A stretch of DNA of 32,000 nucleotides. Source: Vallitaleaceae bacterium (GTDB lineage Bacteria; Bacillota; Clostridia; Lachnospirales; Vallitaleaceae). The stretch spans positions 876,058 through 908,057 of the forward strand of contig OZ223259.1 in NCBI GenBank assembly GCA_965140555.1. The letters are read 5' to 3'. Of this stretch, positions 7,044 to 28,234 are shown piece after piece (position 1 is the first letter of the stretch; each line of letters opens with the position of its first letter). The notes under the pieces were generated by a model. The model ran no database searches. It saw only the letters and a program-made list of their open reading frames with translations, and had not been told where the DNA came from. Made by a program: the position numbers and the translations under genes.

Positions 7044-7193
7044 CTATTTTTCGTTTTCATCAATCCAATCTTTAGCATCTTCTATCGCTTCTGCATGAGG
7101 TATATGTACATTAGTTTCCTCTTCAAAACTCTCTGCATCAAGAACCGCTTCAGTTTGGTTTGGATTATATTCTCTTTGTTTTTTATCTTCCAT
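7044..7193 (-). CDS. Small acidic hypothetical protein, 49 aa (below the ORF-track size cut-off)
   Basis: My translation: MEDKKQREYNPNQTEAVLDAESFEEETNVHIPHAEAIEDAKDWIDENEK. AGGAGA (7201-7206) lies 7 nt upstream of the ATG. A consensus promoter lies upstream and a terminator downstream. The C-terminal AKDWIDENEK resembles small DUF3787-like clostridial proteins, but that is from memory and unverified. Confidence 0.6.
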   Translation of the reverse strand: MEDKKQREYNPNQTEAVLDAESFEEETNVHIPHAEAIEDAKDWIDENEK

Positions 7194-7252
7194 GTGACAC
7201 TCTCCTTTACTGTGCATTTCTATTCGTCATTGACGTTTTTGATTCTACACCT

Positions 7253-7281
7253 ATTATCGCTCTTTAAAAAGGAATTGTCAA
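7253..7281 (-). promoter_or_regulatory. Sigma-A-type promoter (TTGACA-N17-GATAAT) for the 49-aa ORF
   Basis: On the minus strand, TTGACA (7281-7276), a 17-nt spacer, then GATAAT (7258-7253). It lies about 45 nt upstream of the SD. Confidence 0.55.
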
Positions 7282-7319
7282 TAGTATATAATAATTATTA
7301 TCCGTTACTATGTTCTACT

Positions 7320-8414
7320 TTATGAAAGATACCCTTCTGCTTTAAGCAATTCTGCAATTAACACAGCACCTCCTGCGGCACCACGCAATGTATTATGAGA
7401 CAGACAAACAAATTTGTAATCAAATTGTCGGTCCTCCCGAAGACGTCCGACTGAAATACCCATTCCACGCTCATAATCCCGATCAAGTCCGGTTTGAGGA
7501 CGATTGTCTTCTTCCATGTATCGAATAAACTGTTCCGGTGCTAAAGGTAGTTTTAACGCTTGAGGTTGACCGCTATAAGTATTCCAAGCTTGAATCATCT
7601 CCTCTTTCGTCGGTTTCTTTTCAAAATTTACATAAACAGCTGCCATGTGACCATCCAATACCGGAACTCGAATACATTGAGCTGAAACAAGCGGCTCTGT
7701 TGCATGAACAATGGCATCACCGTCAATATGACCCCATATCTTCATCGGCTCCAATTCACTTTTCTCTTCTTCGCCACCAATATAAGGAATAACATTATCA
7801 ATCATCTCCGGCCATGTCTCAAATGTTTTTCCTGCCCCACTAATTGCTTGATAGGTGCAAACAATAATATCTTTAGGACCGTAAGCCTTCAATGCTTCTA
7901 TTGCCGGGACATAACTTTGAATGGAACAATTCGGCTTTACTGCTATAAATCCTTTTGTTGTATTCAACCGCTTCTTTTGAAACGGAATGATATCTAGATG
8001 TTCGTTATTCACTTCCGGTATTACCATAGGTACATCCGGTGTCATACGATGGGCTGAATTATTCGAAATAACCGGGACTTCTGCTTTTGCATAGGATACT
8101 TCAAGGGCACGAATGTCGTCTTTAGGCATATCTACGGCACAAAAAACAAAATCAACTTCCTTGGCAATGGCGTCCACATCCATAGCATTATAGATTATCA
8201 TTGGTTTAATCCACTCAGGAATAACCTCTTTTTGAGCCCAACGATTTCCTACTGCCTCTTCATAGGTCTTTCCTGCTGACCTGGGACTTGCTGCAAGTAA
8301 TGAAATTTCAAACCATTCATGTTGATGTAGTAGCGTAATAAACCGTTGACCCACCATTCCTGTTGCGCCAATAATTCCGACTTTCAATTTTTGATTCATG
8401 ATTATCTCACTCAT
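7320..8414 (-). CDS. asd: Aspartate-semialdehyde dehydrogenase
   Basis: KVGIIGATGMVGQRF NAD(P)-binding motif, active-site KPNCSIQSY, and C-terminal LSHNTLRGAAGGAVLIAELL. The true start may be the second ATG at 8399 (MNQKLKVGIIG...); neither ATG has a strong SD. Confidence 0.9.
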   Translation of the reverse strand: MSEIIMNQKLKVGIIGATGMVGQRFITLLHQHEWFEISLLAASPRSAGKTYEEAVGNRWAQKEVIPEWIKPMIIYNAMDVDAIAKEVDFVFCAVDMPKDDIRALEVSYAKAEVPVISNNSAHRMTPDVPMVIPEVNNEHLDIIPFQKKRLNTTKGFIAVKPNCSIQSYVPAIEALKAYGPKDIIVCTYQAISGAGKTFETWPEMIDNVIPYIGGEEEKSELEPMKIWGHIDGDAIVHATEPLVSAQCIRVPVLDGHMAAVYVNFEKKPTKEEMIQAWNTYSGQPQALKLPLAPEQFIRYMEEDNRPQTGLDRDYERGMGISVGRLREDRQFDYKFVCLSHNTLRGAAGGAVLIAELLKAEGYLS

Positions 8415-14992: not shown

Positions 14993-15874
14993 CTATCGGT
15001 CTTCTCGTATACTATTCGATATAAAGGCTATTGCCATCATTCCCGGTCCTACATGGGAAGCAATCGTTGCTGACAAGCAGGTTACTATGACAGGATTTGT
15101 TATGCCTGCAGCCCTGAAACTTTCAATAATACGCTCTGCTTCTTCCGGAAGATGTGCATGACCTACAACAATCATTTGTTTGTCATCCGACAGATTTTCC
15201 ATTACTTTGTTCAGCATATACTTATAGGCTTTGGCCTTGCCCCTTAACTTACTAAACGATACTAATTTACCACGATGATCCATCGAAAGAACGGGCTTCA
15301 CGGATAGCATAGTACCCACATATGCTGATGCCGCCGGTATTCGTCCCCCATTTTTTAAATGCATAAGATCGTCTACAACAAACCAATGATTGGCTTGCAA
15401 TTTAATCGATTCTATATGTTGAAAAATCATCATTGTTTCCAACTCTTTTTCAACATCATGAACGGCTTCTATAACAAGTGCCGCCAGTCCTATTGATGCT
15501 GCCAATGAGTCAATAATATGTATCGATGCCTCTGGGTAATCTTCTTTAACCATATCAGCCGCAAGAAATGCATTCCCAACTGTCCCGCTTAGCCCTGAAG
15601 AAAGACCGATATAAATTATCTCGTTATCGTTCTCAATTTGCTTTTTAAAGCACTCGTAAAATGTCATCACATTAATCTGAGATGTTTTTGGCATTGTTCC
15701 ATTATCAAGCTGTTCATAAAAAAATGTATGTGAAAACGTATCACCTAGATCGTCCACATACTCTCTATCCGCAATATTAACCGGCATTCCTAAAACAATT
15801 AAATGTTTCTCATGGGATCGGACAAAATCCAAACTGAGATCCGAACTTGAATCAGTTATGATTATCGTATTCAT
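14993..15874 (-). CDS. DegV-family fatty-acid-binding protein (FakB-like)
   Basis: IIITDSSSDLSLDF at the N-terminus, a typical DegV length of 293 aa, and HVGPGMMAIAF near the C-terminus. GGGAGG lies 6 nt upstream. Confidence 0.88.
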   Translation of the reverse strand: MNTIIITDSSSDLSLDFVRSHEKHLIVLGMPVNIADREYVDDLGDTFSHTFFYEQLDNGTMPKTSQINVMTFYECFKKQIENDNEIIYIGLSSGLSGTVGNAFLAADMVKEDYPEASIHIIDSLAASIGLAALVIEAVHDVEKELETMMIFQHIESIKLQANHWFVVDDLMHLKNGGRIPAASAYVGTMLSVKPVLSMDHRGKLVSFSKLRGKAKAYKYMLNKVMENLSDDKQMIVVGHAHLPEEAERIIESFRAAGITNPVIVTCLSATIASHVGPGMMAIAFISNSIREDR

Positions 15875-17410: not shown

Positions 17411-19255
17411 TTAATGTCTCCGTTCCTTTATTTTTTCTATAAATGACAGAGGTAATGTCTGTTCAACTGCAAATGCTACAGCCACAGCTCCTTCTCCGGC
17501 ACTCATGGCAATAATCGTTGATGAAGCACATATATATGTAGGTTCAAATCCTAAGTGCTTTTCTAGAATTCTACCTATATTTTGGGCTTCTTCTTTTTTA
17601 TCAACATAGACGATACTATACGCAGTAATCGTACATTTCTCATGATATTTGAGAATTTCTTTAATCAAGGCTTTTCGGCTACCGTTCTTGGACCAGGCCA
17701 GTCGTCCTAATGCCCCTTCTCCGTCTTTATTCAACGAGATTAGCGGTCTGAACTTAATCTTCTCTAATATATTACCCATCTTTACGGTAAGACGCCCTGA
17801 ACGAACCATAGGTTGTAAATCTGCGATTCGAACAAGTATTCTTACATTGCCTCGGGCTACATTAAGGAAATCAACAACTTCCTGTACAGACTTCCCTTTA
17901 TTTAATTCACCGGCTGCCATATATGCTAATAGACCTTGGGCTGCAGAGTTTTGCTTAGAATCGATTACATGGACTCTTTTACGTCCTTCATTCATCGGCT
18001 TTGCAACCTTCATAAAATTATTATAGGTTCCGCTTAATTTTCCTGATACATTAATGACTATAAGAGAGTCATAATAGCTTAATAAATATCTTAAACGATT
18101 ATCTATGGTTGCCACATCCGGCTGTGATGACGCAACCGTCTCTCCTTGATTTACTGCTCTTATTACATCTTGATTATGAATGGTCAACTTGTCAAAATAC
18201 TCACTCTCATCAATACTAATCCGCAAGGGTATTGTATGTATTTGCAACTGCTCAAGCAATGTTGGCGAGAGATCTGCAATAGAATCAACCACAATCCCAA
18301 CTTGATGTTGACGGTGGTAAGCAACCTCCACCTGCTCTTTCATATCATCAATCTTTTGATATCGAATGGATCCTTGCTTTTCTAAGAGTTGTACAACTTC
18401 TCGCGGTTGATTCGTATGAATATGAACACGTGTGACCAGTTTATTCCCTGCAACCACAATAGCATCTCCATAAGGTTTTAAGATATCCTTAATCCTTACC
18501 TCCGGATTATTAACTTTGTATAACACTTCTGTACAATAGCGATATGCAGGTACTTCATCTCCTACATGATTGTGCTCATGTACGCTTCTAATCTCATCTT
18601 CATCAATCTCTTCATCGGCCATTTCTTCTAACTGAAGATGCGTCTGTCGACTTTTCAAAAATTCCAGCATACCTTCAATAAATAAGACAAAGCCTTTGGC
18701 TCCTGAGTCAACAACTCCCGCTCGCTTTAGAATATCTAATTGTTGCTTTGTATGATCTAATGCAATGGTAGCTTCTTTGTAACCATATTCAATGACATCA
18801 ATAAAACTTTTACCTTTTGCCCGCTCCAACTTCAATGACTCTGTAAAAATGCGAATAACTGTTAATATAGTGCCTTCTACCGGTTCTCCCAATGCTTCAT
18901 AGGCAAAATCCAACGCCTGCTGATTAGCCGAAACAAAATCATCAATACTTACGTCTTCTTGACTATTGATTCCCTCACTGATACCTACAAAATATTGTGC
19001 AAAAATAACCCCCGAATTACCTCTAGCACCACTTAATGCAGCCTCAGCAAGTATTCCAAAGGCTTCCTTAAAATTATAATTGTCGTTTGCTCTATATAAA
19101 ACAGCTTTCATTGTAGAGAATAAATTGGTTCCGGTATCTCCATCAGGTACCGGAAACACATTAATCTGATTTAAATACTCTTTCTGTCCCATGACATTTT
19201 TTGCTCCTGAAAGGTAAGCATAATAAAGTCGTTTTCCCTCGATAGTTTCTGTCAT
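17411..19255 (-). CDS. DAK2-domain (FakA-like kinase) protein fused to a full-length DegV-like domain
   Basis: Dak2 motif [14 protein letters not shown] and ARGNSGVI; a central His/Cys cluster (HEHNH...YRYCTEV...RVHIHTN); C-terminal DegV-like [16 protein letters not shown]...YSIVYVD...GEGAVAVAF. The track starts at 19273. I prefer ATG 19255 (MTETIEGK), which has AAGGAGG (19262-19268) 6 nt upstream. Confidence 0.85.
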
Positions 19256-19474
19256 TCTAGTCCTCCTTAACATGTTCTCTCATATATATATAATCCGGCG
19301 TTGTATTATTAATTAATAATAATTATTACTCATCAATTATACCTTATTCTTTAATTGGTATCAATCACGAAATAAAGCTAGAAAAATTATGTAAACTTTG
19401 CTAAAATAGAATAAGTTTAACGCATCACTGCGACATTGCTTTCTCAGATAAAAATAATGAAAGAAGGTATTACT

Positions 19475-20533
19475 ATGAACACTCCGGTTATAGAAACGAA
19501 TTTTGCTTTTGAATTCATTTACAACCTAATGGGGATTGCTTATTACGAAACTAAAAACCCATCCACCGAAGATTTATCCACACAACGTTTTGCCCATTTT
19601 GTGACGGGTTACATTCACGAAATCTATAATGATATTCCACATATGGTCCGTAATGACATACACTTGTTCTTAAATGATTTCAGTAGCTTCTATGTTTCTT
19701 TATTACATATAGTTATTAATGAAACGATTCAAACACCTTTAGAACTTATAGAACGTCTTCGCAATATGGATATACATGAATTTTTAAACCTCTATCTAGA
19801 AGGAAATGAAATTCCACTCCAAACAGATTCCCCTAAAGACGCGTTGGATTCAGCTTTGGATGAGCTCACTAAATCCCGTCATGACTTAGCTAAGGATAAG
19901 GAACTCTTCTATGAATTTCTTGAGTTTGGTAGCGTCATCATGAAACGACTTGACGAATCTTTTTCCTACTATTACCGCCATTTTTTCCAACCACAAGAAG
20001 CCGAATTGGATCGCCAACTTAAACGCCTTCAAAAACATCATCAAATGATCTATGATGATAATCCTGAAGGATTCATTAACTCGATTCTTTTTCAAAGCAA
20101 GGAGTCTCTCAATGATTCGCAAACAGAAATCCATATCTACCTAGGCTATTATTATGGTGATCGAATTTCTGTCGCCTACGGAAGCAAGCATGAAGTATAT
20201 TTTTTCTATGGCGCAAGCGCCGAGAAAAAACTCTATTCCGAAAACCACCGTATCCAATATGATGAGTTAATCAAATCCTTAGCCGATGATACACGACGTA
20301 ATCTCATACGGTTTTTAATGAATTCCCCTCATTATAATAAGGAAATAGCTGATCATCTAGGCATCACTACTGCCACAATCAGCTATCATATAAGTCGTCT
20401 CGTTGATATAGGTATTATCCACTTGAAATATCAAGAAGGTAAACGTATATACTATCAGGTAGATATGGATCGATTCAATCAATTATTTGATGGTCTACGT
20501 CGTTATTTGATTTCGTCTGTAACCGACTACTGA
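19475..20533 (+). CDS. ArsR-family winged-helix regulator with a large unrecognised N-terminal domain (about 270 aa)
   Basis: The C-terminal LADDTRRNLIRFLMNSPHYNKEIADHLGITTATISYHISRLVDIGIIHL is an ArsR/SmtB HTH. The track starts at TTG 19436. ATG 19475 has AAGAAGG 8 nt upstream. The N-terminal domain may be DUF5937-like, but that is from memory and unverified. Confidence 0.7.
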   Translation: MNTPVIETNFAFEFIYNLMGIAYYETKNPSTEDLSTQRFAHFVTGYIHEIYNDIPHMVRNDIHLFLNDFSSFYVSLLHIVINETIQTPLELIERLRNMDIHEFLNLYLEGNEIPLQTDSPKDALDSALDELTKSRHDLAKDKELFYEFLEFGSVIMKRLDESFSYYYRHFFQPQEAELDRQLKRLQKHHQMIYDDNPEGFINSILFQSKESLNDSQTEIHIYLGYYYGDRISVAYGSKHEVYFFYGASAEKKLYSENHRIQYDELIKSLADDTRRNLIRFLMNSPHYNKEIADHLGITTATISYHISRLVDIGIIHLKYQEGKRIYYQVDMDRFNQLFDGLRRYLISSVTDY

Positions 20534-22098
20534 TTCAACAAACGCTCAAAACTCATACCATATTGATCAGCAATCCTTTTGGCGTAACTACGACCTAGCG
20601 GTTTACCCATTTCAATTTTATAGGGTGCATGCTCCATATCCCGACCTGCAATGAAACTTATCGGTTGCATGTTCGGGATTTCTTGTTGTATAGAATCTGA
20701 AAGTTCATGTAAATGGGTATTAAATATCACATAACTTTTCTGATCATATATTGCATGAAGGGTTTCTATTGCAATTTGCAAACTTTCATGATGGGATGTT
20801 CCTGAAAAAGATTCATTCATAAAATAAAAAGCCTGTCCATCTCCCGCGTCATAAAGCATTTTAAATCGACGACATTCTTCCCCCAATCGGCCATATTCCA
20901 CCGTATCTTTCTCTTCTCTAGGAAAGTGTAGATAGATACCGGACACATAAGGTAACATCGCTTTCTCTGCGGGCACAGGAAATCCCAATTGGGCAAACCA
21001 GATACATTGTGCCAAAGCTGTCGTTATCGTCGTTTTCCCTCCTCTATTTGCTCCTGTAAGAATCAGAATCCTCCTATTCTCATCAAAGGATATACTGTTA
21101 TTTACAACCAATTCCTTATCTTTGGTATACCCTAGTTGCAAATTGTACAGTCCTTCAATGGCTCCTCCCGTTTTCCACTCAGGAAACGTCCATCGATGCC
21201 CTCGTTTCTTTAACTGCTGAACATGGCGATAACCAACTATATAATACGGTAATTCCATTTTCATTAGACTTAAATATTCCAAAATCTTCTCAATAAACTG
21301 ATCACAAAAACGAATCAACTGTAGCATCGCCGGTTCAATAATCTTCTCCAATTGGTTCAGCGCATCCGGCGGTGCAATAGACTCTCTGGCAAAAATTTTA
21401 CGCGGAATGAGCATGACTTCTCTTACGCCCTTACCTATATAATACTCCATTTTTTTATTAAAGCGACTGTACTTGAATTCCTCTTCGCTTAATTCAAGCA
21501 AAATCGCTTCTATCGGTTGTAAGTACTCATCCAAATTCAAGCCGATTTTCATACTCTTTATTTCAGATTGTAATGTTTTGATATGATGTACATCTTCCAA
21601 AAAAGCTTCATATATTGATGAGGAAATAATCTCTTTATACATCTGATGCAATTGTCGTAGTCCATCGGAAGCCAGTGGCAGTTTTTCAAGTGCTGCTATT
21701 GCTTGTCCAACCATTTTATGAATGAGCAACACCTCTTCCATACGCTTCATCAAATTATAAACTGTTGCCTCTTTTTCAAAAGCGAATTTACTCATCGTTA
21801 AAAGATGGTATGCTTCCTCTCCTACGCCATAGAGTTCAAACAGTATATCCTCATGGTCTAAAAACTCTTTCATAATCCCTTGCCTGTAAACCGTATCTTT
21901 TTGGTGTACAGGATACTCTTGAATCAATGCACGTATGTTAATTTTATCCTCACTTTGCAAAATTTCTTCCAACACATCAATGGTCATATCATCCATATCA
22001 TCATCTGATAGTCGTCCGGTTGCAGACTCTCGACTGTGTTCCCAAAGTAAACTAATTCCGACAGAAGGCAGCTGATTTATAGGCATCTCTAAACGCAT
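20527..22098 (-). CDS. MutS-II-lineage ATPase paralogue B (MutS domain III/V only; no mismatch-binding domain, no Smr)
   Basis: Walker A ILTGANRGGKTT, FPVPAEKA, Walker-B region FYFMNESFSGTSHHESL, NTHLHEL, and a MutS2-like C-terminal YKIEMGKPLGRSYAKRIADQYGM. The ATG at 22098 overlaps the upstream paralogue by 10 nt; AAGGTGA lies 6 nt upstream. Confidence 0.8.
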   Translation of the reverse strand: MRLEMPINQLPSVGISLLWEHSRESATGRLSDDDMDDMTIDVLEEILQSEDKINIRALIQEYPVHQKDTVYRQGIMKEFLDHEDILFELYGVGEEAYHLLTMSKFAFEKEATVYNLMKRMEEVLLIHKMVGQAIAALEKLPLASDGLRQLHQMYKEIISSSIYEAFLEDVHHIKTLQSEIKSMKIGLNLDEYLQPIEAILLELSEEEFKYSRFNKKMEYYIGKGVREVMLIPRKIFARESIAPPDALNQLEKIIEPAMLQLIRFCDQFIEKILEYLSLMKMELPYYIVGYRHVQQLKKRGHRWTFPEWKTGGAIEGLYNLQLGYTKDKELVVNNSISFDENRRILILTGANRGGKTTITTALAQCIWFAQLGFPVPAEKAMLPYVSGIYLHFPREEKDTVEYGRLGEECRRFKMLYDAGDGQAFYFMNESFSGTSHHESLQIAIETLHAIYDQKSYVIFNTHLHELSDSIQQEIPNMQPISFIAGRDMEHAPYKIEMGKPLGRSYAKRIADQYGMSFERLLNQ

Positions 22099-23678
22099 TT
22101 CTCATCACCTTCTTTCTCTTTACCTGTCAATTGACTATACGTCACCCCATATCTTGATGCAATTTCCATAGCATAACTTCGCCCTAACGGTTTACGCACT
22201 TCCATTTCATAACTGATTTGATGATTATTCATCTTCGTCACCAAACTCTTAGGATATTGAGGTGTATGTATTAAATGTTCCTCCGTTTGTTCGTCTATCC
22301 AGTGCGTAACTTCATCATATAATTCATGTAGATGCGTATTATACACAAAAGGTATCCCCTTTGACAGCAACGCTTTTACTGCCTCTGCCGCTATACTCAA
22401 ACTCTCTAAATGACTCGTTCCCGCAAAGGATTCATTCATCAAGACTAACGTTCTGGGATTTGTTTCTTTAAATAGTGCGACAAACATCTCACATTCTTTT
22501 CCAAATTTACCTTTATCCAGATTTTCTTTCTCAGACACGGGAAAATGGGATAGAATATTATCTGCCAATCCCATATGTGCTGACGCTGCGGGCACATAAA
22601 GACCAAGTTGTCCCAACAGTTGTATCTGCCCGATACATTGAGTGAACGTTGTTTTACCGCCTCGATTGGCTCCTGTTATAATATAGGCTTGATTGCTTTT
22701 ATCCATGTCAAAATTATTAGTAATAATCGTCTCTTCCTGATCTCTCAATGCAAGATTGATATTATATCCCTTTATAAAATGTAAATTGTAGTCTCCTTCA
22801 TGAAAGGTCGGCTTGCACATTGGCAACCCTTTGCTTTCCATCTGAGTAATAAGCCTGTGACCAGATTCATAAAATGTCACTTCATCATGTAGCTGAATAA
22901 ACGGTGTAATATCCATGCGGGTATATGTTTTGACAAAATTCTCCATCTTAGGTTTATGTTCTCTTAATGCATACTCAATCTCTTCCAATACTTTATAGTT
23001 TAAACGTCCGATACGAAAAACAGGCACATAACTGGCTATCCGTTGTCCTAAGAACTCCGGATTTAAGGACAAGGTGTCTGATACATGCCTGAATGCTTTT
23101 GGATAACGGTGATGATGCGTTTCAACACTCGTCACCTGAGCAAACTTCGGACGAAGTCCTGATGTCATATTCACACTCAACACGGCACTTTTAATTTGAG
23201 AAAAAATATATTTGATTTCGCGTAAATCTTTTTTCATTGTTTTAAATGTATCCGTTTCCAGATTTCTTTCCACATCTTCTTTCAGACACAAAAGACCTTG
23301 AGACGTCAGCGGATAAAACCTTAGAATTTGGTTTAGCTCCTCTAACGCCTCAATAGATTTTTCCATCAATATCACCAAATCAATAATACGATACAAATTG
23401 GATTGCTCATATAACTTTGCATTATATAATGGTTTCAAATCATAAAATCGTTCCAATGCTTCCGATAACTCCTGCATCAGACCTTTATTTTGATAGAAAT
23501 CTTCCAATATTACCTGGCGATAGTGAATGGTCTCTTTGTCCATGCATAATGAAAAAAGAATCTCATCATTTGCAAGGAGTCTATCATAGACTCCTTGCAA
23601 ATTGAGATTCTCAATAATCTGTCGATCTAACGTATGTCGATTACTCTCCGGCAACCATATGATACTATTAAACTCCAT
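22089..23678 (-). CDS. MutS-II-lineage ATPase paralogue A (MutS domain III/V only; no mismatch-binding domain, no Smr)
   Basis: Walker A IITGANRGGKTT (nt 22647-22673), LYVPAASA, Walker-B region LVLMNESFAGTSHLESL, NTHLHEL, and C-terminal YEMEVRKPLGRSYAMEIASRYGV. The SD GGGAGA lies immediately after the adenosyltransferase stop. Confidence 0.8.
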   Translation of the reverse strand: MEFNSIIWLPESNRHTLDRQIIENLNLQGVYDRLLANDEILFSLCMDKETIHYRQVILEDFYQNKGLMQELSEALERFYDLKPLYNAKLYEQSNLYRIIDLVILMEKSIEALEELNQILRFYPLTSQGLLCLKEDVERNLETDTFKTMKKDLREIKYIFSQIKSAVLSVNMTSGLRPKFAQVTSVETHHHRYPKAFRHVSDTLSLNPEFLGQRIASYVPVFRIGRLNYKVLEEIEYALREHKPKMENFVKTYTRMDITPFIQLHDEVTFYESGHRLITQMESKGLPMCKPTFHEGDYNLHFIKGYNINLALRDQEETIITNNFDMDKSNQAYIITGANRGGKTTFTQCIGQIQLLGQLGLYVPAASAHMGLADNILSHFPVSEKENLDKGKFGKECEMFVALFKETNPRTLVLMNESFAGTSHLESLSIAAEAVKALLSKGIPFVYNTHLHELYDEVTHWIDEQTEEHLIHTPQYPKSLVTKMNNHQISYEMEVRKPLGRSYAMEIASRYGVTYSQLTGKEKEGDEKCV

Positions 23679-23687
23679 TGTCTCTCC

Positions 23688-24281
23688 CTACTGACGCAAT
23701 GTCATCTCTTCCTCTTCAATCTTGAACACATAGTTCAAATAACGCGCAGTCTGGAACAAATAATCGGCTAATCGATTAATGTATTGATAATCCACAGGTA
23801 CTTGCTGAATGACCTTTTGTTCCAATAACTCCTCAACATGCCTTACAAATACACGTTCACATCGCCGTGTAACACTCCTTACAACGTGGGTATATGTTGC
23901 AGTTACATGTCCGCTCATATAAATAAAATGATGTAGAACACCTGTTTTTTGCGTCATTGTATCAATACGCTGTTCCAAATAATCAATTTCTTCTTTGGAT
24001 ACAAGCTCCTGTCCGAATCCTGTTGTGACATCACTCCCTATGCGAAACATTGCATATTGTATGTTCGCAAGATCTTTGCAAAGCACATCAAACAAATCCC
24101 GGTCCACATTATCAGCCAAATTACTGACTTCGTTATTGATTAGGCTTCTTAAATGCCCGACTCCACTGTTGATTTCATCAATACTGCCTTGAAGTTCAAT
24201 CAGCAGACTTCCTTTCGATACTTTATCTCCATAAAAATTGGAAGTTTGACCATAATCACCTTGTCTTGTATAAATCGGCAT
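23688..24281 (-). CDS. PduO-type ATP:cob(I)alamin adenosyltransferase (MMAB family)
   Basis: N-terminal MPIYTRQGDYGQTS...KVSKGS, then GSIDEINSGVGHLRSL, VVRSVTRRCERVFV and INRLADYLFQTARYLN match the PduO N-terminal-domain pattern. GGAGG lies 5 nt upstream, directly after the AKR stop. Confidence 0.88.
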   Translation of the reverse strand: MPIYTRQGDYGQTSNFYGDKVSKGSLLIELQGSIDEINSGVGHLRSLINNEVSNLADNVDRDLFDVLCKDLANIQYAMFRIGSDVTTGFGQELVSKEEIDYLEQRIDTMTQKTGVLHHFIYMSGHVTATYTHVVRSVTRRCERVFVRHVEELLEQKVIQQVPVDYQYINRLADYLFQTARYLNYVFKIEEEEMTLRQ

Positions 24282-24296
24282 TTTTGCCTCCTTTTT

Positions 24297-25250
24297 CTAA
24301 TGTAGGCTATAACTCGCTTGTTCTATGCGCATCATATCCTCTTTCGTTAATTGTATATCTGAAACGCCTAGTGCACATCGAAGCTGTTGTGGATTTCTAA
24401 GTCCTACAATAGCACCCGTAACAGCCTCATGTTGTAATGTCCATGCAACTGCCACTTGCGGCACTTGGCATCCTTTTTCCTGTGCTATTTCCTGTAATGT
24501 ATCAACGACTTGCAAATGCACTGATAATTGAGGCTCATTAAACGCATCGGCTGATTTTCTCCAATCATCTTCCGGCAGACTAAGGATACGATCACGCGTC
24601 ATCTTCCCGGTTAGCAATCCACTCGCCATTGGTGAATAAACAATCGTCCCAATTTGATGTTCTTTACAATAAGGTAAAATATCGTTTTCAATATCCCGTG
24701 ACAGCATATTATAAGGCGGTTGTAGTGATGTTATCGGCGCTATATCCGCTATCCGTTCCATTTGACTCACCGTGAAATTGGATACACCAAGATAGCGAAC
24801 CTTACCTTCTCGAACCATTTCTGACATTTCTGCCCAGGCTTCTTCTATGTCTTCTTCCGGATGTGGCCAATGAATCTGTAACATATCAATAACATTGACG
24901 CGTAGACGTCGCAGACTACTCTCCACTTCCTTGCGAACACTCTTAGCTGTTAATTTGTGTTGAATTTCATTTTTGTCATTCCATGTAATTCCAAGTTTAG
25001 TAAAAATCAACGGTCGGTTATGCATATGTTTTAATGCTCTTCCGATAACCTCTTCACTGTGTCCGCATCCATAGATAGGTGCCGTATCAATCCAATTAAT
25101 GCCTTGATCCACTGCTCGAATAATGGTCTCAATCGATTCATTATCTTTTTGATTTCCCCATCCTAGTCGTCCGGGTCCACCTATAGCCCAAGTACCCAAT
25201 CCTACTTGTGAAATTACTAAGTCACTATTTCCTAATCGTTTTTGCTTCAT
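24297..25250 (-). CDS. Aldo/keto reductase
   Basis: KRLGNSDLVISQVGLGTWAIGG, IDTAPIYGCGHSEEVIGRAL, LQIHWP and YLGVSNF are typical AKR blocks. The track starts at 25304. I prefer ATG 25250 (MKQKRLG), which still overlaps the upstream regulator gene by 26 nt. Confidence 0.85.
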   Translation of the reverse strand: MKQKRLGNSDLVISQVGLGTWAIGGPGRLGWGNQKDNESIETIIRAVDQGINWIDTAPIYGCGHSEEVIGRALKHMHNRPLIFTKLGITWNDKNEIQHKLTAKSVRKEVESSLRRLRVNVIDMLQIHWPHPEEDIEEAWAEMSEMVREGKVRYLGVSNFTVSQMERIADIAPITSLQPPYNMLSRDIENDILPYCKEHQIGTIVYSPMASGLLTGKMTRDRILSLPEDDWRKSADAFNEPQLSVHLQVVDTLQEIAQEKGCQVPQVAVAWTLQHEAVTGAIVGLRNPQQLRCALGVSDIQLTKEDMMRIEQASYSLH

Positions 25251-26145
25251 AAGATACACCATCCTTTGAATATATACCCATAAGTTGTGCATATAGTCCA
25301 TCAAAGTTTGTAGCGGTTATATCTGCCTGGCTCTCCAAATGTACCCCCGATGAGAGCGCCTGCCCCCCAACCGCAATGAACATTTCCGGCTTATGCTGTT
25401 GGATGATTTGCATCAGATTATCAAGCGCATCAAGATGATAGGTCAATGTTGCTGAGATAGCAATGAGTGCAGGATTCATTTTATCGAGAAGATCAAGAAC
25501 CTCCTTCGTCGGTATACGATTACCGATAAAAAAGGGATCAAATCCTAGCAATGCAAAATAGTCTGCAATCATACGTATCCCAAAAGTGTGCGATTCACTT
25601 GATAAGGACATACAAATCACTGTTCTACCTTTTCCAATCGGATATAGCGGTTCTAATATCGTCGTGGAAATACGTGAAATCATTGTATAAAAAACACTCG
25701 ATATGAAGTGTTCTTTAGCAACAGAAATCTCTCCGTCTTCCCAAAGTTGTCCTGTTCTAACAAGCAACGGTACAAAGACTTCCTCGTAGATCTGGATAAT
25801 TCTTACGCGATTCATCTCAAGCGATGTCATCAGTGCAATGGCTTCTCGATCTTTTTCTGATAATAGTAGCTGCCACAACTCTTCTTGCAATTGGGCTAAA
25901 AAAAGACCGTCAAACCCTGCCTCTGACTCCGACTCATGTGAGCGTCCTAAAAGATAGTCGATGGATGTATAAAATTGGTCCGCAATGGATGCCAATATAT
26001 CTTGATTAGGAAAACGGGTCTTCTTCTCATAATTAGCAATAGTTGTCTGTCCAAGACCAAGTCGTTTGCCTAATGTCTGCTGACTCATATGATGTTTTTT
26101 CCTTAAATCCTTTAATATATCACCAAATTCATTCACTGTAGCCAC
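25225..26145 (-). CDS. XRE-family HTH regulator fused to a CarH-like cobalamin (B12)-binding module
   Basis: GTG start with AGGAGA 5 nt upstream. Cro/C1 HTH at residues about 7-68. W135-x9-E145-H146 (nt 25708-25743). E184-S-H186-T-F-G189 (nt 25579-25596), then 41 residues to S231 and 26 residues from T233 to G260-G261. Confidence 0.85.
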   Translation of the reverse strand: MATVNEFGDILKDLRKKHHMSQQTLGKRLGLGQTTIANYEKKTRFPNQDILASIADQFYTSIDYLLGRSHESESEAGFDGLFLAQLQEELWQLLLSEKDREAIALMTSLEMNRVRIIQIYEEVFVPLLVRTGQLWEDGEISVAKEHFISSVFYTMISRISTTILEPLYPIGKGRTVICMSLSSESHTFGIRMIADYFALLGFDPFFIGNRIPTKEVLDLLDKMNPALIAISATLTYHLDALDNLMQIIQQHKPEMFIAVGGQALSSGVHLESQADITATNFDGLYAQLMGIYSKDGVSYEAKTIRK

Positions 26146-26156
26146 CTCGTTCTCCT

Positions 26157-26212
26157 ATTATATCACGCCTCGTGATGTACTAACAAGATACGCCGTGCCT
26201 CTTCTTGTTCAA
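26157..26212 (-). promoter_or_regulatory. Promoter region of the five-gene operon (two competing -35/-10 assignments)
   Basis: Best consensus is TTGTTA (26186-26181)-N18-TATAAT (26162-26157), but it abuts the SD and would leave a leader of 6 nt or less. The alternative is TTGAAC (26212-26207)-N16-TATCTT (26190-26185). A second inverted repeat AACAAGA (26182-26188)/TCTTGTT (26203-26209) overlaps the alternative boxes. Confidence 0.4.
26162..26176. promoter_or_regulatory. Operator-like palindrome ATCACG-N3-CGTGAT immediately upstream of the regulator SD
   Basis: Perfect 6-3-6 inverted repeat (26162-26167 and 26171-26176). It lies between candidate -35 and -10 boxes, or at about +2 to +17 of an alternative promoter. 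Confidence 0.45.
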
Positions 26213-26503
26213 TCTAATATATACCGCCATATTCACCAAGTTCTTTATGCAAAATAAAGCCTCTATAACATAGTACGAGACTTTGCACCTTTTCGGATTC
26301 CTTTTTCAGTTGTTCTACAGCTAAACATTATATAAAAGAATAAATGGTTGACTCTTTTCATACCTCGTCTCCTTTATATCCCTATTAAACTTGAACTCTC
26401 TCAAATATGGTGAAATTGCTTAACATTTCTGTTAATTTCATGTAATCTTTTGTGATACATCTATCATATCATAGGTTCACCGATTAATCAAAGAAAAGAA
26501 CGG

Positions 26504-26532
26504 TTGCACCAAATGAATTTGTGTGATAAACT
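26504..26532 (+). promoter_or_regulatory. Sigma-A-type promoter (TTGCAC-N17-TGaTAAACT) for the ABC-F gene
   Basis: TTGCAC at 26504-26509, a 17-nt spacer ending in TGA, and TAAACT at 26527-26532. The leader to the GTG at 26618 is about 80 nt. Confidence 0.5.
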
Positions 26533-26617
26533 TTATCAAGTTATAGTTTTTTATTAGATTTAGGTCGTGGCTAATGTATCGATTCCTTCAGTACATGACC
26601 GATAATGGAGGTTCACA

Positions 26618-28234
26618 GTGTTAAGTGTAAATAATGTCAGTTTAAGATTCAGTGATAAACAACTTTTTAAAGATGTTAATCTGAAATTCACCCACGGTAA
26701 CTGTTACGGTATTATTGGTGCAAATGGTGCCGGAAAATCAACATTCCTTCGTATCTTATCCGAAGAAATCGAACCCAATACAGGTGATATTGCCATTACA
26801 CCCGGCGAACGATTAGCTGTATTGAAACAAGATCACTTCCAATTTGATGAAGAAACCGTTATGGACACTGTCATTATGGGTCATGACCGCCTTTATCAAA
26901 TTATTCATGAGAAGGAAGCATTATACGCCAAAGAAGACTTTACCGAAGAAGACGGTATTAAGTCGGCTGAACTCGAAGCAGAATTTGCGGAATTAAATGG
27001 ATGGGATGCAGAATATGACGCTGAGAAATTGCTCATAGGATTAGATATTCCCAAAGATATGCATACATTGAAAGTCGGTGATTTAAACGGTTCCGACAAA
27101 GTCAAAGTATTACTTGCTCAAGCCTTATTTGGTAATCCACACATTTTATTATTGGATGAGCCTACAAACCATCTTGACTTTAAGACCATTATGTGGCTTG
27201 AAGATTTTCTCATTGATTACCCCAACACTGTTATCGTTGTTTCCCATGACCGTCACTTTTTGAACAATGTCTGTACACATATTGTGGATATTGATTTCCA
27301 AAAAGCCAATATGTATGTCGGTAACTACGACTTCTGGTATGAGTCCAGTCAATTAATGGCCCGTATGGCATCCGATCAAAACAAAAAAGCAGAAGAAAAA
27401 ATTAATGAATTAAAGGCTTTTATTGCCCGCTTTAGCTCCAATGCATCGAAAGCCAGACAGGCAACTTCTCGAAAGAAAATGCTTGATAAAATTAAAATAG
27501 AAGATATAAAACCCTCATCACGACGTTATCCTTTCGTCAACTTTGCTTCTGAGCGAGAAGTCGGCAAAGAGATTCTACGTGTGGAAGGATTATCTAAGAC
27601 CATCGATGGTGTTAAAGTTCTTAACAACATTACGTTCACCTTAAATCATAACGATAAAGTCGTTGTATTAAGCCGTAATGAATTAGCACGTACGACATTA
27701 TTCAAAATTCTCATGGGCGAAATGGAACCGGATGAAGGTGAATATAATTGGGGTGTTACCACAACGGTTGCCTATTTGCCAAAAGATAACAGTGAATACT
27801 TTGAGGATTGCCATATGAACCTTGTGGATTGGCTCCGTCAATACTCCAAGGAAAAAGATGAATCGTTCATTCGTGGATTTTTAGGTAAAATGCTATTCAG
27901 CGGTGAAGAAGCCCTCAAAGACGCTTCCGTCTTATCCGGTGGAGAAAAGGTTCGGTGTATGCTATCAAAAATGATGCTCTCCGGCGCCAATGTTGTTATA
28001 CTAGATGAACCTACAAACCACCTTGACTTAGAATCCATACAAGCTGTCAATGACGGTCTTATTGCATTCAAAGGAAATATTCTCTTTTCCTCACATGACC
28101 ATCGTTTTATAGAGACTATTGCAAACCGTGTATTCGAAATTACACCAAATGGTCTTGTCGATCGTTTATCAACCTTTGATGAATATCTAGAGAATGAAGC
28201 GCTTCAAGAAGAAGTTAATAAAATGTACGAATAA
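26618..28234 (+). CDS. ABC-F family ATPase (YdiF/YbiT-like translation-associated type, no TM domain)
   Basis: Two ABC cassettes (GIIGANGAGKST...LLLDEPTNHLD; LSGGEKVRCML...VILDEPTNHLD) are joined by a charged linker (QNKKAEEKINELKAFIARFSSNASKARQATSRKK). GTG start with GGAGG 6 nt upstream. From memory, the N-terminus is very close to B. subtilis YdiF. Confidence 0.88.
   Translation: MLSVNNVSLRFSDKQLFKDVNLKFTHGNCYGIIGANGAGKSTFLRILSEEIEPNTGDIAITPGERLAVLKQDHFQFDEETVMDTVIMGHDRLYQIIHEKEALYAKEDFTEEDGIKSAELEAEFAELNGWDAEYDAEKLLIGLDIPKDMHTLKVGDLNGSDKVKVLLAQALFGNPHILLLDEPTNHLDFKTIMWLEDFLIDYPNTVIVVSHDRHFLNNVCTHIVDIDFQKANMYVGNYDFWYESSQLMARMASDQNKKAEEKINELKAFIARFSSNASKARQATSRKKMLDKIKIEDIKPSSRRYPFVNFASEREVGKEILRVEGLSKTIDGVKVLNNITFTLNHNDKVVVLSRNELARTTLFKILMGEMEPDEGEYNWGVTTTVAYLPKDNSEYFEDCHMNLVDWLRQYSKEKDESFIRGFLGKMLFSGEEALKDASVLSGGEKVRCMLSKMMLSGANVVILDEPTNHLDLESIQAVNDGLIAFKGNILFSSHDHRFIETIANRVFEITPNGLVDRLSTFDEYLENEALQEEVNKMYE

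What the first reader, a model, noticed from the sequence alone, without database searches (positions are those of the whole stretch)
20527..26212. Five-gene operon linking a B12 sensor, AdoCbl synthesis, an AKR and two MutS-like ATPases
The genes run regulator (25225-26145), AKR (24297-25250), PduO-type adenosyltransferase (23688-24281), MutS-like A (22089-23678) and MutS-like B (20527-22098), all on the minus strand. Junctions are a 26-nt overlap, a 15-nt gap, a 9-nt gap and a 10-nt overlap. Each downstream SD sits on or right after the preceding stop, and I see no internal terminator or promoter, so the sequence supports a single transcription unit with translational coupling. Inference: the regulator, once loaded with the product of the operon-encoded adenosyltransferase, gates expression of the AKR and the MutS-like pair. 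CarH regulons classically encode protection against photo-oxidative damage (carotenoids, photolyases). An AKR (reactive carbonyl detoxification) and a nucleic-acid-associated ATPase pair would be a different, undescribed output. I do not know this gene combination as a described system.
Basis: partly seen in the sequence, partly recalled or inferred. Interest (0 to 1): 0.78.

Follow-up and report, generated by a model that had tools for sequence, protein, structure and literature searches.

The report
B12-sensor operon with MutS-like pair
A vitamin-B12-binding repressor of an uncharacterised type (a CarH-like light/B12 sensor fused to a phage-repressor-type DNA-binding domain) heads an operon encoding the enzyme that makes its own cofactor, a reductase and two MutS-like ATPases of unknown function; the core recurs in related bacteria, giving the first regulatory clue to what these orphan MutS relatives do.

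Summary
Five minus-strand genes occupy exactly the stated coordinates, with junctions of -26, +15, +9 and -10 nt and no convincing internal terminator.

- **Regulator.** It is not CarH proper. It has an XRE/Cro-type HTH fused to a CarH-like B12 module. The Wx9EH motif and the ExHxxG lower-ligand His are conserved, and the modelled fold matches only B12 photoreceptors.
- **Operator.** I found a conserved candidate operator, CAC-N5-GTG, abutting the -10 box. It occurs once in the 32-kb window, at this operon's promoter, and in 22 of 74 metagenomic regulator loci (about 1 expected by chance).
- **Conservation.** The five-gene set is not conserved as a whole. The AKR occurs only here and in a 90%-identical sister contig. 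REG-MutSA-MutSB recurs in at least 5 species, REG-ATR-MutSA-MutSB in one further lineage, and REG-ATR alone in another, all at the same chromosomal slot.
- **Wider family.** More distant regulators sit next to photolyase, mevalonate-pathway genes and efflux pumps, which resembles a light regulon.
- **MutS pair.** Seven Vallitalea-type species keep the pair without the regulator or the operator. A sub-threshold match to the B12 "reactivase" KamC proved generic to short MutS-like proteins.

Best reading: a light/AdoCbl-gated, self-repressing operon with modular cargo. The function of the MutS-like pair remains open.

The parts
26157..26186 (-). Promoter of the operon: -35 TTGTTA (26186-26181), 18-nt spacer, TG-extended -10 TATAAT (26162-26157)
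   Evidence: 10 of 12 match, TG present. The same -10/operator architecture lies upstream of orthologous regulators.
26162..26176 (.). Candidate operator: perfect palindrome ATCACG-agg-CGTGAT (core CAC-N5-GTG) in the promoter spacer, overlapping the extended -10
   Evidence: only GC-containing 6-bp palindrome in the 500-nt upstream region. (only exact TCAC-N5-GTGA in the 32 kb); the same motif abuts a -10 box upstream of REG in 8 of 10 and 22 of 74 related loci, against a background of 0.012-0.038 per kb per strand.
25225..26145 (-). REG: XRE-type HTH + CarH-like B12-binding sensor (four-helix bundle + Rossmann). Probable real start is GTG 26136.
   Evidence: Alignment A2: invariant G132, W135, E145, E184, H186, G208, P212; H146 in 11 of 12. 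PDB sequence hits CtMerR and CarH. Model pLDDT 83; Foldseek top hits are all B12 photoreceptor domains.
24297..25250 (-). Aldo-keto reductase (YdjG/AKR11-like), lineage-specific insertion
   Evidence: Pfam 278 bits; YdjG model 208 bits, below its 550-bit cut-off. Present after REG only in the window and sister contig L093. Absent from 88 + 80 related loci.
23688..24281 (-). PduO-type ATP:cob(I)alamin adenosyltransferase
   Evidence: TIGR00636 135 bits, above the 108-bit cut-off. Orthologs directly follow REG in L091 (54% identity, 4-nt overlap), L100 (50%) and L093 (92%).
22089..23678 (-). MutS-like A: lever + clamp-like + ATPase (MutS domains III-V), no domains I/II. Walker A GANRGGKTT; Walker B N415-E416.
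   Evidence: Model pLDDT 76.6 with full-length Foldseek matches to MutS/MSH2/MSH3/MutS2. Clamp-like segment net +6.
20527..22098 (-). MutS-like B: paralog of A (28% identity), same architecture and motifs, translationally coupled to A (10-nt overlap)
   Evidence: Always found immediately after the A-type gene in 12 species.
19436..20533 (+). Convergent 365-aa protein with C-terminal ArsR-type wHTH and an unassigned N-terminal ~270 aa. Conserved neighbour; membership in the system uncertain.
   Evidence: Conserved in the convergent position in every syntenic locus, including L091, which lacks the MutS pair. Overlaps the MutS-B 3' end by 7 nt.

Best explanation
This is a self-repressing operon gated by adenosylcobalamin and, most likely, light. 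Its first gene encodes a functional analogue of CarH built on a different DNA-binding scaffold: an XRE/Cro-type HTH fused to a CarH-like AdoCbl-binding photosensor module.

**Proposed mechanism**
1. With AdoCbl bound, in the dark, the regulator oligomerises.
2. It occupies the palindrome ATCACG-N3-CGTGAT, which overlaps the extended -10 box, and blocks transcription of the whole unit.
3. Photolysis or shortage of AdoCbl releases it.
4. All five genes are then expressed from the one promoter, with translational coupling at the tight junctions.

**Cargo, which is modular across lineages**
- The PduO-type adenosyltransferase regenerates AdoCbl and so closes a negative-feedback loop that resets repression. 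It is orthologous in four lineages at this locus.
- The MutS-A/MutS-B pair is the conserved output in this clade. It is a heterodimeric MutS-type lever/clamp ATPase lacking the mismatch-binding and connector domains.
- The AKR is a recent addition in this lineage.

**Function of the MutS pair**
My preferred reading is a nucleic-acid or ribonucleoprotein clamp deployed in the light/photodamage response. It sits where photolyase and isoprenoid genes sit next to more distant members of the regulator family.

**Shown computationally:** gene structure, domain identities, sensor motifs and fold, operator conservation, neighbourhood conservation.
**Inferred:** AdoCbl binding, light response, repression, the feedback role of the ATR, and the function of the MutS pair.
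For: **Structure of the unit**
-.

**Sensor**
- Pfam B12-binding_2 + B12-binding.
- Conserved GxxW135, E145-H146, E184-x-H186-xx-G189 and G208-xxx-P212 across 12 family members. These match the published light-responsive signature GxxW/EH/GxxH/GxxxP (PMC11796333).
- The modelled fold's best PDB matches are exclusively B12 photoreceptors: CtMerR, TtCarH, LitR and photocobilin, with target-normalised TM 0.73-0.81.

**Operator**
- The only TCAC-N5-GTGA in 32 kb sits in the promoter spacer.
- CAC-N5-GTG plus a -10 box lies upstream of REG in 8 of 10 loci and 22 of 74 metagenomic loci, against about 1.2 expected.
- In loci where REG is last in an operon (L094) or divergent from a DICT gene (L090), the motif sits at that promoter instead.

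**Cargo conservation**
- REG-MutSA-MutSB in L009, L010, L018, L011 and L012, and in L095-L099.
- REG-ATR-MutSA-MutSB in L100.
- REG-ATR in L091.
- REG-AKR-ATR in L093.

**Light-regulon flavour of the wider family**
- Neighbours include photolyase, HMG-CoA synthase, an IDI-2-like FMN_dh protein and a GHMP kinase.

**Dependence of CarH on a PduO adenosyltransferase**
- Established in M. xanthus (PMC9304148).

**MutS pair**
- Full-length fold match to the MutS lever/clamp/ATPase.
- Basic clamp tip on MutS-A.
Against: - No experiment supports any step.
- Only one palindrome is seen, whereas CarH tetramers use multiple repeats, so the oligomeric binding mode is unknown.
- The G of GxxH is Ser183 in the window protein.
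- The His next to the Trp (TtCarH H132) is absent.
- The relatives are anaerobic Clostridia (Vallitaleaceae-like), some from dark habitats, so AdoCbl availability rather than light may be the physiological signal.
- Seven species carry the MutS pair with no regulator, operator or B12 gene nearby. The pair's link to B12/light is therefore clade-specific, and its function cannot be read from the regulator.
- Both subunits carry N-E instead of the canonical Walker-B D-E, so they may be slow switches rather than motors.
- The MutS-B clamp is not basic.
- Internal promoters cannot be excluded by consensus scans.
Confidence: 0.55

Rival explanations
1. Cofactor-reload machine. The MutS-like heterodimer is not an output. 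It is an ATP-driven chaperone that strips spent (photolysed or oxidised) cobalamin from the regulator's B12 domain, and the co-encoded PduO adenosyltransferase re-adenosylates it. This would be analogous to B12-enzyme reactivases and to the MutS-like 'lysine 5,6-aminomutase reactivase ATPase KamC' named in NCBIfam. The operon would then be a photoreceptor plus its own maintenance kit, with its real targets elsewhere.
For: - NCBIfam names a MutS-like protein as a B12-enzyme reactivase. MutS-A matches that model over residues 56-459, beyond the ATPase (80.7 bits, E 1e-22).
- ATR and the MutS pair are adjacent and coupled in the window and in L100.
- In L091 the only cargo is the ATR, so the theme at this locus is cofactor handling.
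- The regulator overlaps MutS-A by 11 nt in L001.
Against: - The KamC match is far below the cut-off (80.7 and 55 bits vs 300).
- It is equally strong (64-84 bits) for unrelated short MutS-like proteins in L044, one pair lying next to flagellin genes. It is therefore generic.
- Seven species have the pair with no B12 gene nearby and variable neighbours. No XRE-B12 regulator was returned from any named Vallitalea species.
- Most regulator family members (74 of 80 metagenomic loci) manage without a MutS pair.
- I found no literature on KamC in the library.
Confidence: 0.15
2. Dark B12 homeostat. The regulator acts as a protein-based AdoCbl sensor, doing the job of a riboswitch, in organisms that rarely see light. 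Low AdoCbl derepresses the adenosyltransferase to restore the coenzyme pool. The MutS pair and the AKR are passengers that happen to lie downstream at a permissive chromosomal slot.
For: - The REG-ATR two-gene unit in L091 is a complete feedback loop on its own.
- No cobalamin riboswitch is present in the leader.
- The relatives are anaerobic Clostridia/Vallitaleaceae.
- Cargo varies strongly between lineages.
Against: - The sensor carries the residues that distinguish light-responsive CBDs from enzyme CBDs, and its fold matches photoreceptors only.
- Distant family members are next to photolyase and isoprenoid genes.
- The REG-MutS pair junctions are tight or overlapping in several lineages diverged to about 40-58% identity, which argues for selected co-expression rather than hitch-hiking.
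Confidence: 0.2
3. Adjacency without co-regulation. The downstream genes are driven by their own internal promoters, and the regulator controls only itself or distant targets.
For: Promoter-like hexamers exist on the minus strand inside the unit, for example 25446-25417, 23705-23677 and 22367-22338.
Against: - Their number equals the shuffle expectation.
- The junctions are -26, +15, +9 and -10 nt, with SDs at or over the preceding stop.
- The same order and tightness are conserved across lineages.
- No terminator is present.
Confidence: 0.1

Closest known systems
CarH / LitR (MerR-family AdoCbl photoreceptor repressors; TtCarH PDB 5C8D/5C8E, CtMerR 8JBS)
   Same: - Two-part B12 sensor: a four-helix bundle with Wx9EH and a Rossmann domain with the lower-ligand His.
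- Predicted fold matches these structures best.
- Repressor logic, with the operator over the promoter.
- The wider family neighbours photolyase and isoprenoid genes, as CarH/LitR regulons do.
- Dependence on a PduO adenosyltransferase is known for M. xanthus CarH (PMC9304148).
   Different: - The DNA-binding domain is XRE/Cro-type (HTH_3), not MerR.
- The operator is a short palindrome (CAC-N5-GTG), not tandem 11-bp repeats.
- It scores 46 bits against the 400-bit CarH cut-off.
- There is no His after the Trp.
- The adenosyltransferase is inside the operon.
- The outputs are a MutS-like ATPase pair and an AKR, not carotenoid genes.
Putative light-responsive HTH-CBD clusters from database mining (SignatureFinder, PMC11796333)
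   Same: It carries the published signature (GxxW, EH, GxxxP; SxxH in place of GxxH) and an HTH output domain. That paper lists HTH fusions, and DICT, among predicted architectures.
   Different: That work gives no operator, regulon or gene-neighbourhood analysis for HTH-CBD proteins, and characterised only MerR-type and photocobilin examples. The cargo, the operator and the ATR coupling are described here.
MutS4A/MutS4B (and MutS3) orphan MutS subfamilies (Lin, Nei & Ma 2007, PMC2190696)
   Same: Short MutS proteins with only the core and ATPase domains, occurring as two adjacent paralogs whose stop and start overlap. Function unknown.
   Different: - Phylogenetic placement in MutS4 versus MutS3 or a new branch was not tested.
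- Here the pair sits under a B12-sensor promoter.
- Both subunits have N-E in Walker B.
KamC, 'lysine 5,6-aminomutase reactivase ATPase' (NCBIfam NF052383)
   Same: MutS-like ATPase of similar length (model 508 positions). MutS-A aligns over most of the model. It provides a precedent for a MutS-like protein working on a B12 protein.
   Different: - Scores are far below the cut-off.
- There is no aminomutase nearby.
- The same weak match is given by unrelated short MutS-like proteins.
MutS2 / RqcU (endonuclease MutS2, ribosome-collision sensor; PDB 7VUF, 7QV3)
   Same: Lacks MutS domains I and II. The lever/clamp/ATPase core matches by sequence and fold.
   Different: It has no KOW or Smr domains, is a heterodimer of two paralogs rather than a homodimer, and is about 250 residues shorter.

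Membership tests
CarH/LitR (MerR-family B12 photoreceptor) | N-terminal MerR-type winged-helix DNA-binding domain | tested here: not met
   Pfam gives HTH_3/HTH_19/HTH_31 (XRE type) and no MerR hit. The N-terminus matches the ICEBs1 Xre-family regulator and the P22 C2 repressor in the PDB.
CarH/LitR (MerR-family B12 photoreceptor) | Whole-protein score above the NCBIfam CarH equivalog cut-off | tested here: not met
   NF052513 scores 46.2 bits against a 400-bit cut-off.
CarH/LitR (MerR-family B12 photoreceptor) | Wx9EH motif in the helical bundle, and lower-axial His in E/DxHxxG | tested here: met
   W135-x9-E145-H146 and E184-S-H186-TF-G189. W135, E145, E184 and H186 are invariant; H146 is present in 11 of 12.
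CarH/LitR (MerR-family B12 photoreceptor) | AdoCbl-dependent oligomerisation and DNA binding, reversed by light | not testable with these tools
   Requires purified protein, UV-vis, SEC and EMSA.
Light-responsive cobalamin-binding domain (SignatureFinder signature, PMC11796333) | GxxW, EH, GxxH and GxxxP motifs | tested here: inconclusive
   G132-QL-W135, E145-H146 and G208-NRI-P212 are met. GxxH is S183-ES-H186 in the window protein; it is G in P0123, P0143 and P0144.
Light-responsive cobalamin-binding domain (SignatureFinder signature, PMC11796333) | Fold resembling the TtCarH CBD | tested here: met
   Model pLDDT 83.2. The top 50 Foldseek PDB hits are all CtMerR, CarH, LitR or photocobilin, with target-normalised TM up to 0.81 and rmsd 3-4 A over about 210 residues.
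PduO-type ATP:cob(I)alamin adenosyltransferase | Score above the TIGR00636 / Pfam PF01923 thresholds over the full domain | tested here: met
   135.2 bits against a 108.45-bit cut-off. PF01923 scores 134 bits over profile positions 1-171 of 171.
Aldo-keto reductase superfamily | Full-length PF00248 match and the catalytic Asp/Tyr/Lys/His tetrad | tested here: met
   277.7 bits over profile positions 2-289 of 291. The motifs IDTAPIYG (D, Y), IFTKLG (K) and QIHWP (H) are visible in the translation; these were read by inspection, not aligned to a structure. It is not an ortholog of YdjG (208 bits against a 550-bit cut-off).
MutS1 (mismatch-repair MutS) | N-terminal mismatch-binding domain I and connector domain II | tested here: not met
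   Only MutS_V, plus a weak MutS_III in A, is detected. The proteins are 529 and 523 aa. Equivalog scores are 100 and 54 bits against a 480-bit cut-off. The fold match covers the lever/clamp/ATPase only.
MutS2 | C-terminal KOW/Smr domains; score above the TIGR01069 cut-off | tested here: not met
   60 and 55 bits against a 400-bit cut-off, with no Smr hit.
MutS4A/B (Lin et al. 2007) | Two adjacent paralogs with overlapping stop/start; only MutS core and ATPase domains | tested here: met
   10-nt overlap. 28% identical paralogs with the same architecture. The arrangement is kept in 12 species.
MutS4A/B (Lin et al. 2007) | Phylogenetic placement inside the MutS4 clade | not tested
KamC (lysine 5,6-aminomutase reactivase ATPase) | Score above the NF052383 cut-off; location in a kamDE lysine-fermentation cluster | tested here: not met
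   80.7 and 55 bits against a 300-bit cut-off. No aminomutase is present in the window. Control proteins in L044 score 64-84 bits.
Known anti-phage defence systems (PADLOC) | Match of MutS-A or MutS-B to a defence-protein model | tested here: not met
   No hit for MutS-A. MutS-B gives only weak P-loop hits, with E >= 5e-4.

The most novel reading that the evidence does not exclude
The MutS-like heterodimer and the operon-encoded PduO adenosyltransferase form a dedicated repair-and-reload system for a B12 photoreceptor. The ATPase pair would clamp the regulator's cobalamin domain and eject photolysed cobalamin. The transferase would rebuild AdoCbl, and the AKR would possibly reduce a carbonyl by-product of the cleaved adenosyl group. 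This would be the first recycling machinery known for any cobalamin photoreceptor. It would also give the orphan MutS3/MutS4-type proteins a protein-remodelling role rather than a DNA role.
Probability: 0.15. Interest if true: 0.85.

Novelty: new variant of a known kind. Interest (0 to 1): 0.6.

Why it matters
**B12 photobiology.** Characterised cobalamin-dependent transcription factors are MerR-type (CarH/LitR) or AerR-like. This locus gives an XRE-type family of at least 155 metagenomic members. It comes with a concrete, testable operator (CAC-N5-GTG over the -10), a built-in cofactor-supply gene, and a census of cargo. That makes it a ready-made system for EMSA and optogenetic work.

**MutS biology.** Short paired MutS paralogs (MutS3/MutS4-type) have had no function or regulatory context since they were defined in 2007. 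This operon states when one such pair is expressed: on loss or photolysis of AdoCbl. The conditions for seeking a phenotype follow directly: light, UV, and B12 limitation.

**Either outcome would be new.** The pair may act on nucleic acids in a photodamage response, or on the B12 sensor itself as a reactivase.

Tried and rejected
1. **KamC as specific evidence for a B12 role of the MutS pair.** Rejected. Control short MutS-like proteins from L044, one pair next to flagellin/FliS genes, score the same 64-84 bits.
2. **"An oxidoreductase always precedes the MutS pair"** (AKR here, Gfo/Idh/MocA in L001, rubredoxin reductase in Vallitalea). Rejected. Upstream genes in the other regulator-less loci are TyrRS, MFS, amylase, GGDEF-EAL and MscS. 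In L001 the oxidoreductase lies upstream of the operator/promoter.
3. **Anti-phage defence system.** No PADLOC model matches.
4. **Cobalamin riboswitch or other RNA element in the 472-nt leader region.** Nothing at gathering thresholds over the window or at E <= 1 over 26100-26700.
5. **Terminator between MutS-B and the convergent gene.** None. The two genes overlap by 7 nt, and the local RNA fold is weaker than shuffles.
6. **Trans-regulation of regulator-less MutS pairs by an unlinked regulator.** 0 of 7 have the operator motif within 400 nt upstream.
7. **Literature on KamB/KamC, MutS-like reactivases, or XRE-type B12 regulators.** Nothing relevant in the library.
8. **Locating the window's own genome.** Its proteins are in the protein database (a 3,632,899-bp contig), but no encoding contig is on record and no 100% match was found among species representatives.

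Full report
**1. Observation**

One search lists five minus-strand ORFs at the coordinates given. reproduces the four junctions: -26, +15, +9 and -10 nt. It also shows the SD-like sequences at or over the preceding stop codons.

- Regulator: HTH_3 + B12-binding_2 + B12-binding.
- Second gene: a full-length aldo-keto reductase.
- Third gene: a PduO-type adenosyltransferase above its curated cut-off.
- Last two genes: both carry MutS domain V.

The consensus scan found no credible internal terminator. Promoter-like hexamers are no more frequent than in shuffles (33 vs 29.3 +/- 5.5). MutS-B overlaps the 3' end of a convergent gene by 7 nt, and that region has no stable hairpin. The description is accurate.

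**2. The regulator is CarH-like in its sensor half but belongs to a different family**

Its DNA-binding domain is XRE/Cro-type. It resembles the ICEBs1 Xre-family regulator and the P22 C2 repressor in the PDB. The CarH equivalog model scores 46 bits against a 400-bit cut-off.

The sensor half carries the residues that matter for AdoCbl photochemistry. In an alignment of 12 family members:
- G132, W135, E145, E184, H186, G208 and P212 are invariant.
- H146 is present in 11 of 12.

This gives Wx9EH and ExHxxG. It covers three of the four published motifs for light-responsive cobalamin-binding domains (GxxW, EH, GxxH, GxxxP; PMC11796333). For the fourth, the window protein has Ser in place of Gly in GxxH.

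An AlphaFold model (pLDDT 83) finds only B12 photoreceptor domains as its best PDB matches: CtMerR, TtCarH, LitR and photocobilin. Target-normalised TM reaches 0.81.

**3. A conserved operator**

The only strong minus-strand promoter upstream is TTGTTA-18-TG-TATAAT at 26186-26157. Its spacer holds a perfect palindrome, ATCACG-agg-CGTGAT. This is the only TCAC-N5-GTGA in the 32-kb window.

The core CAC-N5-GTG abutting a -10 box recurs widely.
- It lies upstream of the orthologous regulators in 8 of 10 loci first examined, against a background of 0.012 per kb per strand.
- It lies within 200 nt upstream of the regulator in 22 of 74 metagenomic loci, where about 1.2 would be expected.
- In L094 the regulator is the last gene of a MacAB-type efflux operon, and the motif sits at that operon's promoter.
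- In Halothermothrix orenii it sits at the promoter of the divergent DICT-domain gene.

This pattern is what an autoregulatory repressor binding over its own promoter would produce.

Because the -10 lies so close to the annotated GTG, the real start is probably the GTG at 26136. That codon is preceded by GAGGTGG and is ATG in the sister contig L093.

There is no riboswitch in the leader.

**4. Neighbourhood conservation: the core is real, the five-gene set is not**

The MutS-A family has A-type orthologs (39-59% identity) in only about 11 species-level genomes, all Vallitaleaceae or "Eubacteriales" MAGs. I ran tblastn with the window's proteins against 88 loci and against 80 regulator-centred metagenomic loci. 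The window's chromosomal slot lies between an ABC-F gene and a convergent ArsR-type gene. At that slot the arrangements are:

| Arrangement | Loci |
|---|---|
| REG-MutSA-MutSB | L009, L010, L018 (=L001), L011, L012 (=L008), L095-L099 |
| REG-ATR-MutSA-MutSB | L100 (ATR 50%, MutS-A 55% identical) |
| REG-ATR only | L091 (ATR 54% identical, 4-nt overlap with REG) |
| REG-AKR-ATR... | sister contig L093 only (REG 90%, ATR 92%) |

So the adenosyltransferase is an orthologous, long-standing member of this locus. The MutS pair is the commonest cargo. The AKR is a recent insertion.

Seven further species, including Vallitalea guaymasensis and V. maricola, have the overlapping MutS-A/MutS-B pair with no regulator. 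Their upstream genes are all different, and none has the operator motif upstream. The broad 28-30% identical family, with over 550 genomic hits, consists of single genes in unrelated contexts.

**5. What the wider regulator family controls**

I clustered the ORFs flanking 68 metagenomic regulators and scanned the recurrent clusters with Pfam. They are:
- DNA photolyase (4 loci, directly downstream in L130, which also has the operator).
- HMG-CoA synthase, an FMN-dependent IDI-2-like protein and a GHMP kinase (mevalonate/isoprenoid pathway).
- HlyD/MacB/AcrB efflux components.
- GAF-GGDEF-EAL proteins.
- A second XRE-B12 paralog.

Photolyase and isoprenoid genes are the classic content of CarH/LitR light regulons (established knowledge). 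This supports a light-responsive role for the family and places the MutS pair in a cargo position.

**6. The MutS-like pair**

- The two proteins are 28% identical paralogs.
- The MutS-A model (pLDDT 76.6) aligns over about 570 columns with MutS, MSH2, MSH3 and MutS2. That covers the lever, clamp and ATPase without the mismatch-binding and connector domains.
- Both subunits have an intact Walker A (GANRGGKTT). Both carry Asn-Glu where canonical MutS has Asp-Glu, and this is invariant in the family. The E. coli D693N mutant at this position is a known Mg-coordination/switch mutant (PDB 3K0S appears among the hits; the interpretation rests on my own knowledge).
- The clamp-like segment of MutS-A is net +6 on an acidic protein, and positive in 8 of 10 orthologs. 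The MutS-B segment is neutral. This is weak support for binding a polyanion.
- The tandem, overlapping A/B arrangement is what Lin, Nei & Ma (2007) described for the orphan MutS4 subfamily (PMC2190696). I could not test phylogenetic membership.

**7. The KamC lead and its control**

NCBIfam's "lysine 5,6-aminomutase reactivase ATPase KamC" matched both proteins (80.7 and 55 bits against a 300-bit cut-off). This suggested the pair might reload B12 onto the sensor.

As a control I scanned three unrelated short MutS-like proteins from L044, two of them a pair beside flagellin and FliS genes. They score 64-84 bits on the same model. The match therefore reflects the shared short MutS architecture and is not specific to B12.

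The reactivase idea survives only on gene linkage: ATR next to MutS-A here and in L100, and REG overlapping MutS-A in L001. I keep it as the most novel reading, at about 0.15.

**8. Mechanism I consider most likely**

In the dark, AdoCbl-loaded regulator occupies the palindrome over the -10 and shuts off the operon. Light, or loss of AdoCbl, releases it. The operon then supplies more regulator, the adenosyltransferase that rebuilds AdoCbl, and the cargo. The new AdoCbl closes a feedback loop that resets repression.

CarH's dependence on a PduO enzyme is documented in M. xanthus (PMC9304148). The cargo is the MutS-like heterodimer in this clade, plus an AKR in this lineage.

Everything after the sequence-level evidence is inference.

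Rivals are a dark AdoCbl homeostat with passenger genes, the reactivase model, and independent internal promoters.

**9. Novelty**

HTH-CBD fusions have been listed among predicted photoreceptors by database mining. I found no description of any of the following:
- an XRE-type B12 regulator;
- its operator;
- an operon-encoded adenosyltransferase;
- a MutS-like pair under such control.

This is a new variant of the CarH kind of system, with a new output, and it gives the first regulatory context for a MutS4-like pair.

Noticed in passing
window 19436-20533 (+): A 365-aa protein with a C-terminal ArsR-type wHTH and an N-terminal region of about 270 aa with no Pfam match. It is conserved in convergent orientation downstream of the regulator locus in every syntenic genome (54-59% identity), including L091, which lacks the MutS pair. 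Its 3' end overlaps MutS-B by 7 nt.
   Followed up: partly
window 26262-26360 (-) and 26463-26491 (-): The 472-nt intergenic region upstream of the operon holds a second promoter-like site (TTGATT-17-TG-TATGAT). It also holds a 32-codon ORF (MKRVNHLFFYIMFSCRTTEKGIRKGAKSRTML) with a strong SD (AAGGAGA). No Rfam match. Conservation could not be checked, because the sister contig L093 ends 45 nt upstream of REG.
   Followed up: partly
window 17411-19273 (-): A 620-aa protein fuses Dak2 + FakA middle domain (fatty-acid kinase catalytic subunit) to a complete DegV/FakB-type fatty-acid-binding domain. It is apparently a single-chain fatty-acid kinase. A separate DegV gene lies at 14993-15874.
   Followed up: no
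window 22089-23678 and 20527-22098; alignment A1: Both MutS-like subunits, and all 10 aligned orthologs, have Asn-Glu (MNESF) at the Walker-B position where canonical MutS has Asp-Glu. This is the natural equivalent of the E. coli D693N switch mutant.
   Followed up: partly
L089 6211-6819/5681-6214 and L090 6250-6795: In Thermohalobacter berrensis and Halothermothrix orenii the XRE-B12 regulator is divergent from a DICT-domain protein, with an ECF-transporter S component as well in L089. The CAC-N5-GTG/-10 motif faces the DICT gene. H. orenii also has an AKR-ferredoxin fusion two genes away.
   Followed up: partly
L127, L140, L144 (about 7170-7810, minus strand): Some regulator loci carry a second, divergently oriented B12-binding-domain protein of about 180 aa without an HTH. 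Four loci have a full second XRE-B12 paralog next to the first (for example L108).
   Followed up: no
L044 9749-14622: One Lachnospiraceae MAG locus encodes three short MutS-like proteins: a 592-aa single gene, then a convergent overlapping pair of 538 and 498 aa. They lie immediately next to fliS and flagellin genes.
   Followed up: partly
L095 8879-12033: In this REG-MutS locus the MutS-A and MutS-B reading frames are each broken into two tblastn pieces. This may reflect pseudogenisation or assembly/frameshift errors.
   Followed up: no
L001 6101-7072: In the closest relatives a Gfo/Idh/MocA oxidoreductase lies 70 nt upstream of the regulator on the same strand. The operator and promoter sit in that gap, so it is probably not part of the regulated unit.
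   Followed up: partly
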